64,000 bases of DNA from Escherichia coli (GCF_016026235.1 NZ_CP065613.1), one strand, 5' to 3'; positions 34,923 to 39,801 are shown, counted from the first letter of the stretch. A program made the numbers and translations. Notes: a model not told the origin generated them from the sequence alone.

Positions 34923-36179
34923 ATGGATTTCTTTCGTTTTTTGATGAGCGATGTACTTTCCGAACCCGCAGTGCTGGTCGGTTTAATCGCCCTGATTGGC
35001 CTGATTGCACAGAAAAAACCGGTAACCGAATGCATTAAAGGTACCGTCAAGACCATTATGGGGTTTGTGATTTTAGGCGCAGGGGCGGGTTTAGTTGTGT
35101 CGTCACTGGGTGACTTCGCAAACATTTTCCAGCATGCCTTTGGTATTCAGGGTGTAGTGCCGAACAATGAAGCCATTGTTTCCGTAGCGCAGAAAAGCTT
35201 CGGGAAAGAAATGGCGATGATTATGTTCTTTGCGATGGTTATCAACATTATGATTGCCCGTTTCACACCGTGGAAATTTATCTTCCTGACCGGTCATCAC
35301 ACGTTGTTTATGTCGATGATGGTAGCGGTAATTCTGGCAACAGCAGGCATGACCGGCATTACGCTTATAGCCGTTGGCTCTTTGGTTGTTGGCGTGGCAA
35401 TGGTCTTTTTCCCGGCTATTGCGCATCCGTACATGAAGAAAGTGACCGGTTCTGATGACGTTGCCATCGGCCACTTCTCAACATTATCTTATGTATTGGC
35501 CGGTTTCATCGGCAGCAAGTTTGGTAATAAAGAGCACTCGACTGAAGACATGAATGTGCCGAAAAGTCTGCTGTTCTTGCGCGACACGCCGGTTGCTATC
35601 TCTTTTACCATGAGCATAATTTTCCTGGTGACGTGCCTGTTTGCGGGTGCAGATGCGGTGAAAGAGCTTAGCGGTGGTAAAAACTGGTTCATGTTCTCTA
35701 TCATGCAATCCATTACCTTCGCAGCTGGCGTGTACATCATTCTGCAGGGTGTGCGCATGGTGATTGCGGAGATTGTCCCGGCATTCAAAGGTATTTCAGA
35801 CAAGCTGGTTCCGAATGCCAGACCTGCTCTCGATTGCCCGGTCGTCTTCCCTTACGCACCTAACGCTGTACTGGTTGGTTTCCTGAGTAGCTTTGCTGCA
35901 GGTTTAATCGGTATGTTCACGTTGTATCTGCTGAACATGATCGTGATTATTCCTGGTGTGGTGCCGCACTTCTTCGTAGGTGCAGCTGCAGGGGTATTCG
36001 GTAATGCAACGGGTGGACGTCGTGGTGCGATTTTGGGTGCCTTCGCTCAAGGCTTGCTTATTACCTTCCTGCCAGTATTCTTATTGCCGGTGCTGGGTGA
36101 TATTGGTTTTGCTAACACCACCTTCAGTGATGCTGACTTTGGCGCACTGGGTATTTTGTTAGGGATTATCGTTCGCTAA
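34923..36179 (+). CDS. PTS EIIC component (ascorbate-type, SgaT/UlaA-like)
   Basis: 418-aa polytopic membrane protein following EIIA and EIIB. Confidence 0.75.
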   Translation: MDFFRFLMSDVLSEPAVLVGLIALIGLIAQKKPVTECIKGTVKTIMGFVILGAGAGLVVSSLGDFANIFQHAFGIQGVVPNNEAIVSVAQKSFGKEMAMIMFFAMVINIMIARFTPWKFIFLTGHHTLFMSMMVAVILATAGMTGITLIAVGSLVVGVAMVFFPAIAHPYMKKVTGSDDVAIGHFSTLSYVLAGFIGSKFGNKEHSTEDMNVPKSLLFLRDTPVAISFTMSIIFLVTCLFAGADAVKELSGGKNWFMFSIMQSITFAAGVYIILQGVRMVIAEIVPAFKGISDKLVPNARPALDCPVVFPYAPNAVLVGFLSSFAAGLIGMFTLYLLNMIVIIPGVVPHFFVGAAAGVFGNATGGRRGAILGAFAQGLLITFLPVFLLPVLGDIGFANTTFSDADFGALGILLGIIVR

Positions 36180-36418
36180 TATTTTGATGACATTAATATC
36201 CTCCAGGATTTCAGGAACGTGGAGGATATTAATTCCTCTTATTTTCTCCATTTTTCTTTCTTCCAGTCAGGACTGCATCCGATTAATCGTAAGGCAGTAT
36301 GACTTTCTGTGAGACAGATGCTGGCCAACGTGGGATATTTAACGCGGGTTAACATCGTTGTCAGAGCCGCATGGGTGAGCTGTTGCTACACCCCGGTATT
36401 TCCACCACGGAGGCCAGC

Positions 36419-37546
36419 ATGAACAACAATAACACATTGTACGTCGGGTTAGATGTTCACAAAGAATCGATTACTGTCGCTTATGCTATCAATTCAGAAC
36501 CTGTTGAACTGATGGGTAAAATTGGCACATCACCTACTGATATTCAGAATCTTTGTAAACGTCTCAGGTCAAAGTCATCGCAGGTCAGTATCGTTTATGA
36601 AGCGGGGCCCTGTGGTTATGGACTTTATCGTCGGCTGGTGAAATCCGGTTTTGACTGCATGGTCTGCGCCCCCTCACTTATCCCGAAAAAACCGGGGGAG
36701 CGGGTTAAAACCGATCGCCGTGATGCCATCAGACTTGTGCGTTCACTGCGTGCAGGAGATCTTTCTGCTGTCTACGTACCCGGCATTGAAGATGAGGCAT
36801 TCCGGGATTTGGCCCGGGCATGGGCATCTGCCCGCGATGATTTACGGCATGCAAGGCAACGTCTGAAATCGTTTCTTCTGGTTCATGGGGTCCATTATGT
36901 CGGGCGAGCAGATTGGGGCCCTGCACACCGACGCTGGCTCAGCAAATACTCATTCGAAAGTCCCTGGCGACAATTAGCTTTTGACGAACACCGTCGTACA
37001 ATAGAAGACCGGCAGGCACAATGTGAACGGCTGGAATCCGCCCTGAAGGAGGCCGTTACCGAATGGAGGCTGTATCCGGTAGTAGAGGCGCTGCAAGCCA
37101 TGCGAGGGATTCAGTTTATTACTGCGGTTGGATTAATTTCTGAACTGGGTGATCTGACCCGTTTTGAACATCCACGACAACTGATGTCATGGTTTGGTAT
37201 CACGCCATCAGAATATTCATCGGGTGGAAGCAGACATCAGGGCAGCATTACCAAAGCCGGAAACAGCTATGCCAGAAAGCTATTGGTCGAGGCAGCGTGG
37301 AGTTACCGTCATCCGGCACGCATCAGTCCGGCAATACAAAAAAGGCAGGAAAATTTACCCCGCCCCGTCATTGACAGAGCATGGGATGCTCAACTCAGGC
37401 TTTGTAAGAGGTATCGAAAACTTCAGGCCAAAGGAAAGAATGTCAATATTACAATTGTTGCTGTTGCACGTGAGCTGGCGGGTTTTATCTGGGATATGGG
37501 CCGAATAGCAATATCTGTCGCACAACAACCACAATGTCACAAATAA
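36419..37546 (+). CDS. IS110-family transposase/recombinase (DEDD N-terminal domain)
   Basis: Start at MNNNNTLYVGLDVHKESI after GGAGG; C-terminal motif GITPSEYSSGGSRHQGSITKAGNSYARKLL typical of the IS110 family. Confidence 0.8.
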   Translation: MNNNNTLYVGLDVHKESITVAYAINSEPVELMGKIGTSPTDIQNLCKRLRSKSSQVSIVYEAGPCGYGLYRRLVKSGFDCMVCAPSLIPKKPGERVKTDRRDAIRLVRSLRAGDLSAVYVPGIEDEAFRDLARAWASARDDLRHARQRLKSFLLVHGVHYVGRADWGPAHRRWLSKYSFESPWRQLAFDEHRRTIEDRQAQCERLESALKEAVTEWRLYPVVEALQAMRGIQFITAVGLISELGDLTRFEHPRQLMSWFGITPSEYSSGGSRHQGSITKAGNSYARKLLVEAAWSYRHPARISPAIQKRQENLPRPVIDRAWDAQLRLCKRYRKLQAKGKNVNITIVAVARELAGFIWDMGRIAISVAQQPQCHK

Positions 37547-38138
37547 AAAATGAGAATAACCAGTTCCCTGAAGGCGACGTAGCCCGGTACAAGAGTAACC
37601 CACGTTAGCGCTTGGCGACGGCGGAACAAAGCTGATTCGCGACGTAAGAAAGTGGCAGGCTCATATGACGGACCTCTGTAATGCGGTATCCAACCCGCGA
37701 ATATCAGCGTGATTCACCGTCGGATTTACTGCTACGTCGCCCTCAGGGAATTAAACCTAAAAAGAAAATCGTCAAAATTAGAGATTCCGGTTTGACACGG
37801 AAAGTCATATCAGCGCTGACGGGTGACCCTAAGCCCTGATAATCATAGCTTAAGGTGAGGATTTATGAGGGATTAATTAGGAAAAGTAATAATTAATTTG
37901 TTGTCAGTCGGCGATGTTTGTTAGGCCAATATTTCAAAAATAATCCAGCTTGTCGTCAATAATTGCGATAAAGAGATAAATTAAAGTTAAATAATTAAAT
38001 CATTAAAAAATTACGCCATTAAAATGCGAGGCGTCTTCCGGATTAGAATCGATAAAACAGAATGGGTTAAAGAGAGCGATATAATAGCGGCGGGTGCTTG
38101 AGGCTGTCTGTCTCAGGCATTAGCTGAACGGCAGATAG

Positions 38139-38193
38139 AGAAAAGCCCCGAGTGATATTTTACCATCAACCCGAGGCCCCCTATATGCTGAAC
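38139..38193 (-). ncRNA. sokC: putative Sok-type antisense RNA of the hok/mok locus (position inferred, not seen)
   Basis: Inferred from the canonical hok/sok layout, in which the antitoxin RNA is antisense to the mok start region; no promoter or terminator verified. Confidence 0.3.
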
Positions 38194-38394
38194 ACATGTA
38201 GAGTGCCTCTTACTGACCGTAAGGTCAAGGAGAAGAGAGCAATGAAGCAGCATAAGGCGATGATTGTCGCCCTGATCGTCATCTGTATCACCGCCGTAGT
38301 GGCGGCGCTGGTAACGAGAAAAGACCTCTGTGAGGTTCACATCCGAACTGGCCAGACGGAGGTTGCTGTTTTCACGGCTTACGAATCCGAGTAA
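38185..38394 (+). CDS. mokC: Mok-type translational coupling frame overlapping hok
   Basis: 69-codon frame starting MLNTCRVPL that ends at the same stop as hok. Confidence 0.6.
   Translation: MLNTCRVPLTDRKVKEKRAMKQHKAMIVALIVICITAVVAALVTRKDLCEVHIRTGQTEVAVFTAYESE
38242..38394 (+). CDS. hokC: Hok/Gef-family type I toxin (50 aa)
   Basis: MKQHKAMIVALIVICITAVVAALVTRKDLCEVHIRTGQTEVAVFTAYESE, a single-TM Hok family peptide. Confidence 0.85.
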   Translation: MKQHKAMIVALIVICITAVVAALVTRKDLCEVHIRTGQTEVAVFTAYESE

Positions 38395-38417
38395 GAGCAA
38401 CGGCGGGGAGTGATCCC

Positions 38418-39712
38418 CTGAGGGATCCCCAGAAAATTTAGTAAACCATTATCATATTGGTATACCGTTGCTGTAGAACTTTCAGCCCTGCGTCAAGTGA
38501 CAGTGTGTTTAGTATGAGTGGAGAATGTCGAATCACATTCTCCGCCAGTTTTAATAACGAGATGACTCGCCTGTGCTTCACTGTATTTGCCTGATATTTA
38601 TGATGTATCCCTTTGTTTTCCAGGCTGAAACCGCTTAACCACATAATGATACTGGCTAATGTTGCGATCAGACTCAATACCGTGACCCGCCCGGATGAAT
38701 GACTGGCACCAAACCGTAGTCCAAATCCCCAGCGAGGATTTTTTTCATCCCTGAAATTTTGCTCAATTTGCATTCTACGGCTGTATAATTTCATTACCTG
38801 TTTTGGCGAGAACTCAGTACTGTTTGTGAAAATAAACCATGGTGATTTCCCGGCAGTACGAGCTTTAGCCGTCACCGATGGTCTGGTTGCTCTTTCCTTC
38901 GAGCGTTTAAATCTACGACCTTTAGGCTTACTTTTATAAAGATAAAAATGCCCTTCATGTTGTGCATTTTTATCTCGACCCAGCAGGCCTTCACCTAAAT
39001 AAATTGCTGTCGTTGATGCTTTTGTGCCTGAGTCCGACACCTTTTCCCAGCCATTACCAACATTGTAATAATGATTGCCCAGTACCCGGCAAATATAGGT
39101 CCAGCCACGGGAGCGGAGCTGTTGGAACCATCGCCCCTGAAAACCGGCATCTGTAATAACAATGACATCAGTCCCGGGGGAAAAGCACTCAGCAAGCGAT
39201 TCCAGAAAACGCTCATGTACATCTGCATTCGCTGTCTGTGATGATGGAACGACACAACTCATCAACGGTAAAGAACGCCCGTCACATGCCAGGCTTGCCC
39301 GCAAAAGCTGAAAACGAGAGGCATGATAAGCACTCCAGTCAATGAGTATCACAACACGAGACATTCCCCGCGTAATCTTTTGGGTAATTCGCTGAAAAAT
39401 GGTGGAAACCTCATTTTGCAAATGTCGATTCCCCAACAGTCGATCCACCCGCTTTATTTTGTTTTTAACTGATGCCGTACCGGTTAAATGACGCCCGATA
39501 CTGGTAAGTGTGAGGGAAGCGCCATTTATTACAGCATTAGTTGCGTCAATCAGTGATTTTTGACGGTAAAGATGCAAAGGGGCCAGTATATTGTTAAGGA
39601 AATTTTGGCATAATGAACGTGCAGGCATAGTGGTGATCTCCTTGAAATTGTTAGCACAATCAATTAGATCACATCTCACTATGCCTGTCTTGTTTTCTGG
39701 GGATTCCTCAGG
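38418..39712 (-). mobile_element. IS4-family insertion sequence (IS10-like), copy 3, flanked by 9-bp direct repeat AGTGATCCC
   Basis: Same termini as copies 1 and 2; duplicated 9-mer at 38409..38417 and 39713..39721; target lies in GGGGAGTGATCCCC. Confidence 0.85.
38438..39628 (-). CDS. IS4-family (IS10-like) DDE transposase
   Basis: Identical protein to copies 1 and 2. Confidence 0.8.
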   Translation of the reverse strand: MPARSLCQNFLNNILAPLHLYRQKSLIDATNAVINGASLTLTSIGRHLTGTASVKNKIKRVDRLLGNRHLQNEVSTIFQRITQKITRGMSRVVILIDWSAYHASRFQLLRASLACDGRSLPLMSCVVPSSQTANADVHERFLESLAECFSPGTDVIVITDAGFQGRWFQQLRSRGWTYICRVLGNHYYNVGNGWEKVSDSGTKASTTAIYLGEGLLGRDKNAQHEGHFYLYKSKPKGRRFKRSKERATRPSVTAKARTAGKSPWFIFTNSTEFSPKQVMKLYSRRMQIEQNFRDEKNPRWGFGLRFGASHSSGRVTVLSLIATLASIIMWLSGFSLENKGIHHKYQANTVKHRRVISLLKLAENVIRHSPLILNTLSLDAGLKVLQQRYTNMIMVY

Positions 39713-39801
39713 AGTGATCCCCGCCACTTTACAGGTGCTCGCATATCTTCAACGCACCCTATTTTTACCCAGGCCTGCCCACGGGCAGGCTTTTGGGGAG
39801 G

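What the first reader, a model, noticed from the sequence alone, without database searches (positions are those of the whole stretch)
36180..37700. IS110-family element with non-coding flanks that could encode a bridge/guide RNA
Seen: an intact 375-aa IS110-family recombinase with ~240 bp of non-coding sequence upstream (containing a long hairpin AATATCCTCCAGG...CGTGGAGGATATT) and ~600 bp downstream before hok. Established: IS110-family elements lack terminal inverted repeats and encode a structured non-coding bridge RNA in a non-coding end that specifies target and donor. Inference: one flank may hold such an RNA; the element also sits at the synteny breakpoint.
Basis: partly seen in the sequence, partly recalled or inferred. 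Interest (0 to 1): 0.5.

Follow-up and report, generated by a model that had tools for sequence, protein, structure and literature searches.

The report
ISSso6 insertion sequence with bridge RNA

Summary
The element is ISSso6, window 36294-37813 (1520 bp, plus an AG shared with the target). Nine independent copies and two empty sites define its ends. It has 14-bp subterminal inverted repeats, a 375-aa DEDD transposase, a 125-nt leader and a 265-nt 3' non-coding end.

The 3' end encodes a conserved 191-nt structured RNA (37562-37752). A covariance model built only from relatives in other genera (mostly Burkholderiaceae) finds it at 199 bits (E 7e-51).

Two hypervariable patches in one internal loop are guides:
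- UUAGCGCUU (37605-37613) is complementary to the top strand right of the insertion point.
- ACGUAAG (37642-37648) equals the top strand left of it.

Across relatives each patch tracks its own element's flanks: 98/120 matches against 40±6 permuted, and 46/57 against 23±4. A third segment, AUAUCAG (37701-37707), equals the right end plus core.

The upstream hairpin (36195-36230) is host DNA. It is present in genomes without the element.

The copy joins the left flank of one insertion site to the right flank of another, so it does mark a rearrangement breakpoint.

Durrant et al. 2024 already list ISSso6 as carrying a bridge RNA in its right end. The finding is correct in substance but already known. 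RNA expression and activity were not testable here.

The parts
36195..36230 (+). Host hairpin after the PTS IIC gene, terminator-like with a T-rich tail. It is NOT part of the element.
   Evidence: Present unchanged in IS-free E. coli CFSAN061772 (L088 1895-1930). Folds at -21.3 kcal/mol, z -3.1.
36289..36293 (+). Left half of the target: GTA plus the shared core AG (36292-36293).
   Evidence: All 9 copies have GTAAG here, with unrelated DNA further left. Both empty sites read GTAAG|CGCT.
36294..37813 (+). ISSso6, 1520 bp. The AG at 36292-93 or the one at 37812-13 can equally be assigned to the element.
   Evidence: PGAP names the gene 'IS110-like element ISSso6 family transposase'. Ends come from 9 copies and 2 empty sites. 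K-12 homology stops at 37812.
36298..36311 (+). Left subterminal inverted repeat, TATGACTTTCTGTG. This copy has T at 36308 where the other copies have C.
   Evidence: Reverse complement of 37796-37809 apart from that one base.
36294..36418 (+). Left end, the structured tnp leader. The helix GCUGGCC (36320-26) / GGCCAGC (36412-18) abuts the Shine-Dalgarno sequence GGAGG (36409-13) and the AUG.
   Evidence: Conserved in 24 relatives: 23 pairs, 7 with compensatory changes. No patch tracks the flanks.
36419..37546 (+). tnp, a 375-aa DEDD/Ser transposase (recombinase).
   Evidence: NF033542 at 274 bits; PF01548 and PF02371. The motif GITPSEYSSG is visible in the translation.
37562..37752 (+). Predicted bridge RNA / long seekRNA, 191 nt, closed by a 20-bp stem (37563-83 / 37732-51).
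   Evidence: Covariance model from relatives only: 198.8 bits, E 7e-51, against 32 bits on the minus strand. 98.7% of cells paired; 8 compensatory pairs against 3.2±0.9 in shuffles. Single-sequence fold z -4.7.
37605..37613 (+). Right target guide, UUAGCGCUU. Its reverse complement is A-AG-CGCUA(A), covering target positions -3 to +5 (+6).
   Evidence: In 24 distinct guides among relatives, positions +1 to +5 match each element's own right flank 98/120 times, against 39.7±6.0 permuted. ISSso6 sites read AG|CG(C/T)....
37642..37648 (+). Left target guide, ACGUAAG. It has the same sense as the left flank plus core, so it would pair with the bottom strand.
   Evidence: Positions -5 to -3 match each element's own left flank 46/57 times, against 22.7±3.7 permuted. 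ISSso6 left flanks read (C)GTAAG.
37701..37708 (+). Left donor guide, AUAUCAG, identical to the right end plus core. The next base (C at 37708) equals the first base of the right flank.
   Evidence: Matches 37807-37813 at 7 of 7 positions and is near-invariant in relatives. The next base equals flank +1 in 31 of 35 distinct guide sets, against 16.6±2.6 permuted.
37792..37797 (+). Outward-facing TTGACA in the right end. Inferred to be the -35 box of a promoter formed at the circle junction (TTGACA, 17 nt, CAGTAT).
   Evidence: Conserved in nearly all relatives. Junction sequence assembled. By analogy with ISEc11 (PMC11187229). Not tested.
37796..37809 (+). Right subterminal inverted repeat, CACGGAAAGTCATA.
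37814..37820 (+). Right half of the target (CGCTGAC), from the nhaA-hokC site.
   Evidence: The same flank follows ISSso6 in 4 E. coli genomes where nhaA lies on the left. The K-12 empty site reads GTAAG|CGCTCAC.

Best explanation
This is a near-consensus copy of ISSso6, an IS1111-group member of the IS110 family.

Shown from sequence:
- It encodes a DEDD/Ser recombinase.
- Downstream of the gene, on the same strand, it encodes a 191-nt structured RNA.
- One internal loop of that RNA (the target-binding loop) holds two guides that overlap at an AG core. The 5' guide is complementary to the top strand of core plus right flank. The 3' guide is identical to left flank plus core, so it would pair with the bottom strand. 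Together they specify 5'-(C)GTA-AG-CGCUA-3', which is where ISSso6 copies sit.
- A further single-stranded segment, AUAUCAG, is identical to the element's right end plus core (the donor guide).

Inferred by analogy with ISEc11 and IS621:
- The element excises as a circle, and the abutted ends create a TTGACA-17-CAGTAT promoter.
- The RNA is made by transcription through tnp and is then processed.
- The recombinase-RNA complex pairs the circle junction with a GTAAG|CG site and exchanges strands at the AG without duplicating the target.

This particular copy is a hybrid. Homologous recombination between an ISSso6 copy downstream of the PTS operon and another between nhaA and hokC joined the two loci.
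For: Identity and ends:
- Megablast finds copies at 98-99.9% identity annotated as ISSso6.
- Nine copies with unrelated flanks share the sequence from GTAAG|GCAG... to ...CATATCAG.
- Two empty sites read GTAAG|CGCT.

Protein.

RNA:
- 46 distinct homologous 3' ends align into one structure: 45 pairs, 98.7% paired, 8 compensatory pairs against 3.2±0.9 in shuffles and 0-3 when partners are slid.
- A model built without the window sequence scores 198.8 bits on the plus strand and 32 bits on the minus strand.
- Many conserved G-U pairs make the fold strand-specific.

Guides: right guide against own right flank, 98/120 versus 39.7±6.0 (maximum 63 in 10,000 permutations). Left guide against own left flank, 46/57 versus 22.7±3.7.

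Donor guide: 7 of 7 identity to the right end plus core.

Literature:
- Durrant 2024, Supplementary Table 5, lists ISSso6 with bridge RNA end 'RE' and group 'IS1111'.
- In IS1111-type seekRNAs the top-strand match lies 5' of the bottom-strand match (PMC11187229). The same order is seen here.

Hybrid copy.
Against: - There is no expression data, so the RNA, its ends and its processing are inferred.
- No Rfam family matched the region (E up to 1). This may only mean that no such family has been curated.
- The guide for the left end of the element (right donor guide) could not be assigned with confidence. The best candidate, ACUGCU at 37728-37733, needs a skipped base and is invariant, so it cannot be tested by covariation.
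- Most helices are invariant among these fairly close relatives, so covariation support rests on 8 pairs.
- ISSso6 sites in E. coli match the right guide only partly (core plus 2-4 of 5).
- This copy has a private C-to-T change in the left inverted repeat (36308), whose effect is unknown.
Confidence: 0.9

Rival explanations
1. The conserved 3' end works as DNA rather than RNA. Either it is a set of transposase-binding sites, or a single-stranded DNA guide pairs with the target, as in IS200/IS605 elements.
For: Flank-tracking patches show recognition by base pairing but do not say which nucleic acid carries the guide. No transcript data are available here.
Against: The fold contains many conserved G-U pairs that would be A-C mismatches on the other strand, and it scores 199 against 32 bits by strand. 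In four IS1111-type relatives, RNA from this same region co-purifies with the transposase, and for ISEc11 the region is required in cis or in trans (PMC11187229). NCBIfam names the protein family 'RNA-guided transposase'.
Confidence: 0.04
2. The guide RNA lies in the upstream flank: either the hairpin at 36195-36230 or the element's left end, as in IS110-group elements such as IS621.
For: The hairpin is stable. The left end also folds better than shuffles (z -3.7) and is conserved.
Against: The hairpin is host sequence, present without the element, and lies 60 bp outside the element's boundary. The left end has no hypervariable patches that follow the flanks. Its conserved closing helix abuts the ribosome-binding site and start codon, which fits a translational leader. 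All flank-tracking patches are in the right end.
Confidence: 0.02
3. The copy is an inactive relic. The RNA gene and tnp look intact, but the element no longer moves, so it matters only as a substrate for homologous recombination.
For: It has a private mutation in the left inverted repeat (36308) and one in tnp (37513). Its two flanks come from different insertion events, so homologous recombination has acted on it.
Against: It differs from the majority sequence at only 2 of 1520 positions. The RNA region is identical to the other copies. Both present flanks still match the guides (CGTAAG on the left, CGCTG on the right).
Confidence: 0.2

Closest known systems
ISEc11, ISKpn4 and ISPa11 seekRNAs (IS1111 family; Siddiquee et al. 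2024, PMC11187229)
   Same: - Subterminal inverted repeats.
- The longer non-coding region lies downstream of tnp.
- The RNA has a top-strand match 5' of a bottom-strand match, and the two overlap at the insertion point.
- Relatives are naturally redirected by changes in these patches.
- No target duplication.
- A -35 box in the right end faces outward.
   Different: - The ISSso6 transposase is only about 20-24% identical to most other IS in that paper's identity table.
- It is longer (375 aa, against the 330-350 aa quoted for the family).
- The target is different (GTAAG|CG...).
- The RNA has not been studied experimentally.
IS621 bridge RNA (IS110 group; Durrant et al. 2024, PMC11208160; Hiraizumi et al. 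2024, PMC11208158)
   Same: - A two-part RNA that reads both target and donor.
- Each guide includes the core dinucleotide.
- The left guides pair with the bottom strand and the right guides with the top strand.
- The recombinase has the same two domains.
   Different: - In IS621 the RNA is in the left end, with the guides in the opposite order; here it is in the right end.
- The core is AG (A, then G or A), not CT.
- The donor segment sits in a multi-branch region rather than a simple internal loop.
- The cross-talk position found here extends the left donor guide and tracks right-flank base +1. The IS621 handshake guides extend the right guides and read positions left of the core.
ISSso6 entry in ISfinder and NCBI PGAP, and its row in Durrant 2024 Supplementary Table 5
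   Same: It is the same element: 98-99.9% nucleotide identity to annotated copies. The transposase sequence matches the ISSso6 sequence given in both papers' supplements. The table lists it as IS1111 group with the bridge RNA detected in the right end.
   Different: The table gives only the end in which an RNA was detected. The structure, guide positions, target and core worked out here are not in the texts I could search.

Membership tests
IS110 family, IS1111 group insertion sequence | Transposase with an N-terminal DEDD (RuvC-like) domain and a C-terminal domain carrying the G-x-x-P-x4-S-G serine motif | tested here: met
   PF01548 (residues 9-153) and PF02371 (223-297); NF033542 at 274 bits against a cut-off of 140. 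GLDVHK, YEAGP, KTDRRDA and GITPSEYSSG can be read in the translation.
IS110 family, IS1111 group insertion sequence | Subterminal inverted repeats of 7-17 bp, set in from both ends | tested here: met
   14 bp, TATGACTTTC(C/T)GTG / CACGGAAAGTCATA. They lie 4-6 bases in from the left end and 2-4 bases in from the right end.
IS110 family, IS1111 group insertion sequence | The longer non-coding end lies downstream of tnp | tested here: met
   The right end is about 265 nt (37547-37811/13) and the left end about 125 nt (36294-36418).
IS110 family, IS1111 group insertion sequence | Sequence-specific insertion without target-site duplication | tested here: met
   Two empty sites (K-12 nhaA-hokC; CFSAN061772 downstream of PTS IIC) read GTAAG|CGCT. 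Only the AG is shared between element and target. Eight distinct occupied sites share GTAAG, and seven of them are followed by CG.
IS110 family, IS1111 group insertion sequence | Circular intermediate whose junction forms a promoter | not testable with these tools
   The sequence is compatible: TTGACA (37792-97), 17 nt, then CAGTAT across the abutted ends. The TTGACA is conserved in relatives.
Bridge RNA / seekRNA | A structured RNA gene in the non-coding end, conserved among relatives with pairing maintained | tested here: met
   46 sequences, 45 pairs, 98.7% paired, 8 compensatory pairs. A model built from relatives alone hits the window at 198.8 bits.
Bridge RNA / seekRNA | One loop with two guides: one complementary to the top strand right of the insertion point, the other to the bottom strand left of it, overlapping at the core | tested here: met
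   37605-37613 and 37642-37648 overlap at A-AG. The order is top-strand match first, as reported for IS1111 types (PMC11187229).
Bridge RNA / seekRNA | Guides co-vary with the insertion sites of related elements | tested here: met
   98/120 against 39.7±6.0, and 46/57 against 22.7±3.7, using one representative per distinct guide and 10,000 permutations.
Bridge RNA / seekRNA | Donor-binding segments matching both ends of the element | tested here: inconclusive
   Right end plus core: AUAUCAG matches at 7 of 7 positions. Left end: only a weak candidate (ACUGCU, 37728-33, with one skipped base). It is invariant, so it cannot be tested by covariation.
Bridge RNA / seekRNA | The RNA is expressed, binds the recombinase and is required for transposition | not testable with these tools
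   Shown for ISEc11, ISKpn4, ISPa11, ISPst6, ISEc21 and IS621 in the cited papers, but not for ISSso6.
Rfam-curated RNA family | A match to a curated covariance model | tested here: not met
   Only sok (RF01794, 38092-38244) matched within 35000-39500 at E up to 1. This says nothing against the RNA if no family has been curated for it.

The most novel reading that the evidence does not exclude
In this ISSso6 clade the donor-reading segment is extended by one base that follows the first base of the target's right flank (31 of 35 distinct guide sets). So the RNA spells out the integrated right junction (right end, AG, flank +1). The target loop also carries a second copy of the '-3 plus core' triplet.

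This could mean that IS1111-type RNAs read the integrated junctions for excision, or that they use a bottom-strand 'handshake' different from the top-strand handshake of IS621. It would also explain why the DNA encoding this segment acts as a pseudo right end. Two unrelated elements (L004, L052) carry a tandem duplication running exactly from that internal site to the true right end.
Probability: 0.3. Interest if true: 0.45.

Novelty: already known. Interest (0 to 1): 0.27.

Why it matters
For annotating this genome:
- It fixes the element's true limits.
- It removes the host hairpin from consideration.
- It identifies the copy as the joint of a rearrangement between the PTS locus and the nhaA-hokC locus. 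IS-mediated rearrangement of this kind is typical of Shigella and enteroinvasive E. coli genomes.

For the field it adds little that is new. ISSso6 was already listed as an IS1111-group element with a bridge RNA in its right end.

The guide map, the AG core and the target GTAAG|CG(C/T) give a ready design for testing ISSso6 experimentally. The large set of naturally reprogrammed relatives (24 distinct guides) is a useful comparative resource for IS1111-type RNAs.

Tried and rejected
- **Rfam scan of 35000-39500 at E up to 1.** Only sok matched; no bridge-RNA family.
- **Other ISSso6 copies in the window.** None found.
- **Reciprocal junctions in the window** (the nhaA side, and the right side of the PTS site). 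Absent, so the type of rearrangement (inversion or translocation) cannot be decided.
- **Upstream hairpin as RNA candidate.** Rejected because it is host DNA.
- **Left end as guide RNA.** Rejected because it has a conserved leader structure with no flank-tracking positions.
- **GGCAG (37654-58) as a guide for the left end.** Rejected. It is in the same sense as the left end, lies in or next to helices, and does not follow the variable first base of the left end (G/T/A).
- **The variable patch at 37663-37667 (AUAUG here).** It shares mutual information with target position -3, but no consistent pairing rule emerged. The signal may be only phylogenetic, so it is left unexplained.
- **The base after the left target guide against the first base of the left end.** No relation.
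- **Simple promoter scan.** No convincing internal promoter for the RNA.

Full report
**Observation**

The region holds an intact 375-aa ORF at 36419-37546, preceded by GGAGG. It matches NCBIfam NF033542, 'IS110 family RNA-guided transposase', at 274 bits (cut-off 140), and Pfam PF01548 plus PF02371. The catalytic motifs GLDVHK, YEAGP and KTDRRDA and the serine motif GITPSEYSSG can be read in the translation.

Downstream, sok/hok begins at about 38092 (Rfam RF01794, 119.5 bits).

**Identity and limits**

Megablast against complete E. coli genomes finds copies at 98-99.9% identity whose gene is annotated 'IS110-like element ISSso6 family transposase'. I fetched nine copies with different surroundings. 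The shared sequence always runs from GTAAG|GCAGTATGAC... to ...GGAAAGTCATATCAG, and the flanks beyond are unrelated.

Two empty sites fix the boundaries:
- E. coli K-12 between nhaA and hokC reads GACGGCTGTAAG|CGCTCAC.
- Strain CFSAN061772, downstream of the PTS IIC gene, reads CCGATTAATCGTAAG|CGCTCCGAG.

The element is therefore 1520 bp, window 36294-37813. An AG is shared between element and target (36292-93 and 37812-13), and there is no target duplication. The target is GTA-AG-CG(C/T).

The element has 14-bp subterminal inverted repeats (36298-36311 and 37796-37809). The left non-coding end is about 125 nt and the right about 265 nt. These are the features of the IS1111 group (PMC11187229; PMC11208160).

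**The hairpin**

The hairpin lies 60 bp outside the element and is present unchanged in the IS-free genome. It is host DNA, most simply the terminator of the PTS operon.

**The breakpoint**

In four E. coli genomes the same right flank (hokC side) is paired with nhaA on the left of ISSso6. In the window the left flank is instead the left half of the PTS site.

K-12 homology ends exactly at 37812. Neither nhaA nor the right half of the PTS site is in the window. The copy is therefore a recombinant of two ISSso6 insertions and marks a rearrangement joint.

It differs from the majority ISSso6 sequence at only two positions: 36308 in the left repeat, and 37513.

**The RNA**

The 3' end folds far better than shuffles (-88 kcal/mol, z -4.7). 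A scan of one genome per species found 77 loci encoding relatives at 64-88% amino-acid identity, mostly 70-81%. Most are in Burkholderiaceae; a few are in Variovorax, Acerihabitans and a Natronospirales genome.

Their 3' ends align over a 191-nt block (window 37562-37752), with strongly conserved stretches interrupted by short hypervariable patches.

RNAalifold gives 45 pairs:
- a 20-bp closing stem;
- a stem-loop arm containing a large internal loop;
- a multi-branch region with two small hairpins.

On 46 distinct sequences, 98.7% of cells are paired. Eight pairs show compensatory changes, against 3.2±0.9 in shuffles and 0-3 when partners are slid.

A covariance model built from 35 relatives, without the window sequence, hits the window once. 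The hit is at 37562-37752 on the plus strand, at 198.8 bits (E 7e-51). The minus strand scores 32 bits.

**Guides**

In the internal loop, the 5' patch is UUAGCGCUU in ISSso6 (37605-37613). Its reverse complement is A-AG-CGCUAA. The 3' patch is ACGUAAG (37642-37648).

For each relative I compared these patches with that element's own flanks, using one representative per distinct guide:
- The 5' patch is complementary to right-flank positions +1 to +5 in 98 of 120 cells, against 39.7±6.0 after permuting flanks (maximum 63 in 10,000).
- Per position, the match falls from 22/24 at +1 to 16/24 at +5 and 8/24 at +6.
- The 3' patch equals left-flank positions -5 to -3 in 46 of 57 cells, against 22.7±3.7.

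The two guides overlap at position -3 plus the AG core. The top-strand match is 5' of the bottom-strand match, the order reported for IS1111-type seekRNAs.

For ISSso6 the guides specify (C)GTA-AG-CGCUA. The eight distinct occupied sites all have GTAAG, and seven of the eight have CG after it. They match the remaining positions only in part.

**Donor side**

AUAUCAG (37701-37707) is identical to the right end plus core and is almost invariant. The next base equals right-flank base +1 in 31 of 35 distinct guide sets, against 16.6±2.6.

I could not assign a guide for the left end with confidence. Durrant et al. note that in many IS1111 elements the donor-binding nucleotides lie in a multi-loop, which fits the position of AUAUCAG here.

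**Left end**

The left end is conserved and structured. A helix, GCUGGCC (36320-26) / GGCCAGC (36412-18), has compensatory changes and abuts the ribosome-binding site and start codon. No position follows the flanks. I read it as a tnp leader, not a guide RNA.

**Mechanism**

Shown here:
- the anatomy of the element;
- the structure of the RNA;
- the match between guides and flanks.

Inferred from ISEc11 and IS621:
- excision to a circle;
- a junction promoter, TTGACA-17-CAGTAT;
- synthesis of the RNA by transcription through tnp, followed by processing;
- RNA-guided synapsis and strand exchange at the AG.

No internal promoter was evident.

**What is already known**

ISSso6 is a catalogued element. 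Its transposase was included in the phylogeny of Siddiquee et al.. Durrant et al., Supplementary Table 5, lists 'ISSso6 | Detected Bridge RNA End: RE | IS1111'. No paper in the searchable library describes its RNA in detail.

The finding is therefore right in substance and already known in kind. The guide map is a modest addition.

Noticed in passing
L004:2912-3129 and L052:1445-1666 (equivalent to window 37701-37813): Two unrelated elements carry a tandem duplication of their last 106-108 bp: ISSso6 in E. coli SCAID WND1-2022, and a relative in Paraburkholderia domus. The duplication runs exactly from the internal ATATC|AG (the DNA encoding the donor guide) to the true right end ATATC|AG. The RNA gene therefore contains a mimic of the right junction that seems to be used as a pseudo-end, or as an 8-10-bp repeat for slippage. 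Compare the modular circles of ISPpu9 (PMC12288879).
   Followed up: partly
Relatives L016, L017, L019, L021/L028, L031, L037, L039, L054, L058: In elements whose right target guide specifies AA rather than AG at the core, the right junction reads AA. Their left junction, their left target guide and their donor guide still read AG. Either only the first A is truly shared, with the crossover between -2 and -1, or core mismatches are tolerated through rG-dT and rU-dG wobble and are always resolved the same way.
   Followed up: partly
window 37649-37652 (AAAG) and the equivalent positions in relatives: Immediately after the left target guide there is a second copy of the '-3 plus core' triplet (AAG-A-AAG, or TAG-A-TAG). 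Its variable base follows target position -3 in 19 of 23 elements. Its function is unknown.
   Followed up: partly
window 36320-36326 with 36412-36418: A conserved helix in the tnp leader pairs the bases between the Shine-Dalgarno sequence and the AUG with an upstream segment. Three relatives have compensatory changes. It looks like translational control of the transposase.
   Followed up: partly
window 38418-39710 (ORF 38438-39727, minus strand): At the position where K-12 carries IS186A, between dnaJ and hokC, the window has a different insertion of about 1.29 kb encoding a 429-aa ORF. In FDAARGOS_943 the gene at this position is annotated as an 'IS4-like element ISEc60 family transposase'. 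The hokC/sokC locus is therefore flanked by insertion sequences on both sides.
   Followed up: no
window 38092-38244: An intact sok/hok regulatory RNA region (Rfam RF01794, 119.5 bits) lies next to the hokC/mokC reading frame.
   Followed up: no
L005/L006 (E. coli C51 and SWYHX138.261ft): These are ISSso6 variants with a frameshifted tnp, a 5-bp insertion and a changed guide base (UUAGCGCCU). They sit at a site whose right flank (TGAATGT) hardly matches the guide. It may be an off-target or an ancient insertion.
   Followed up: no
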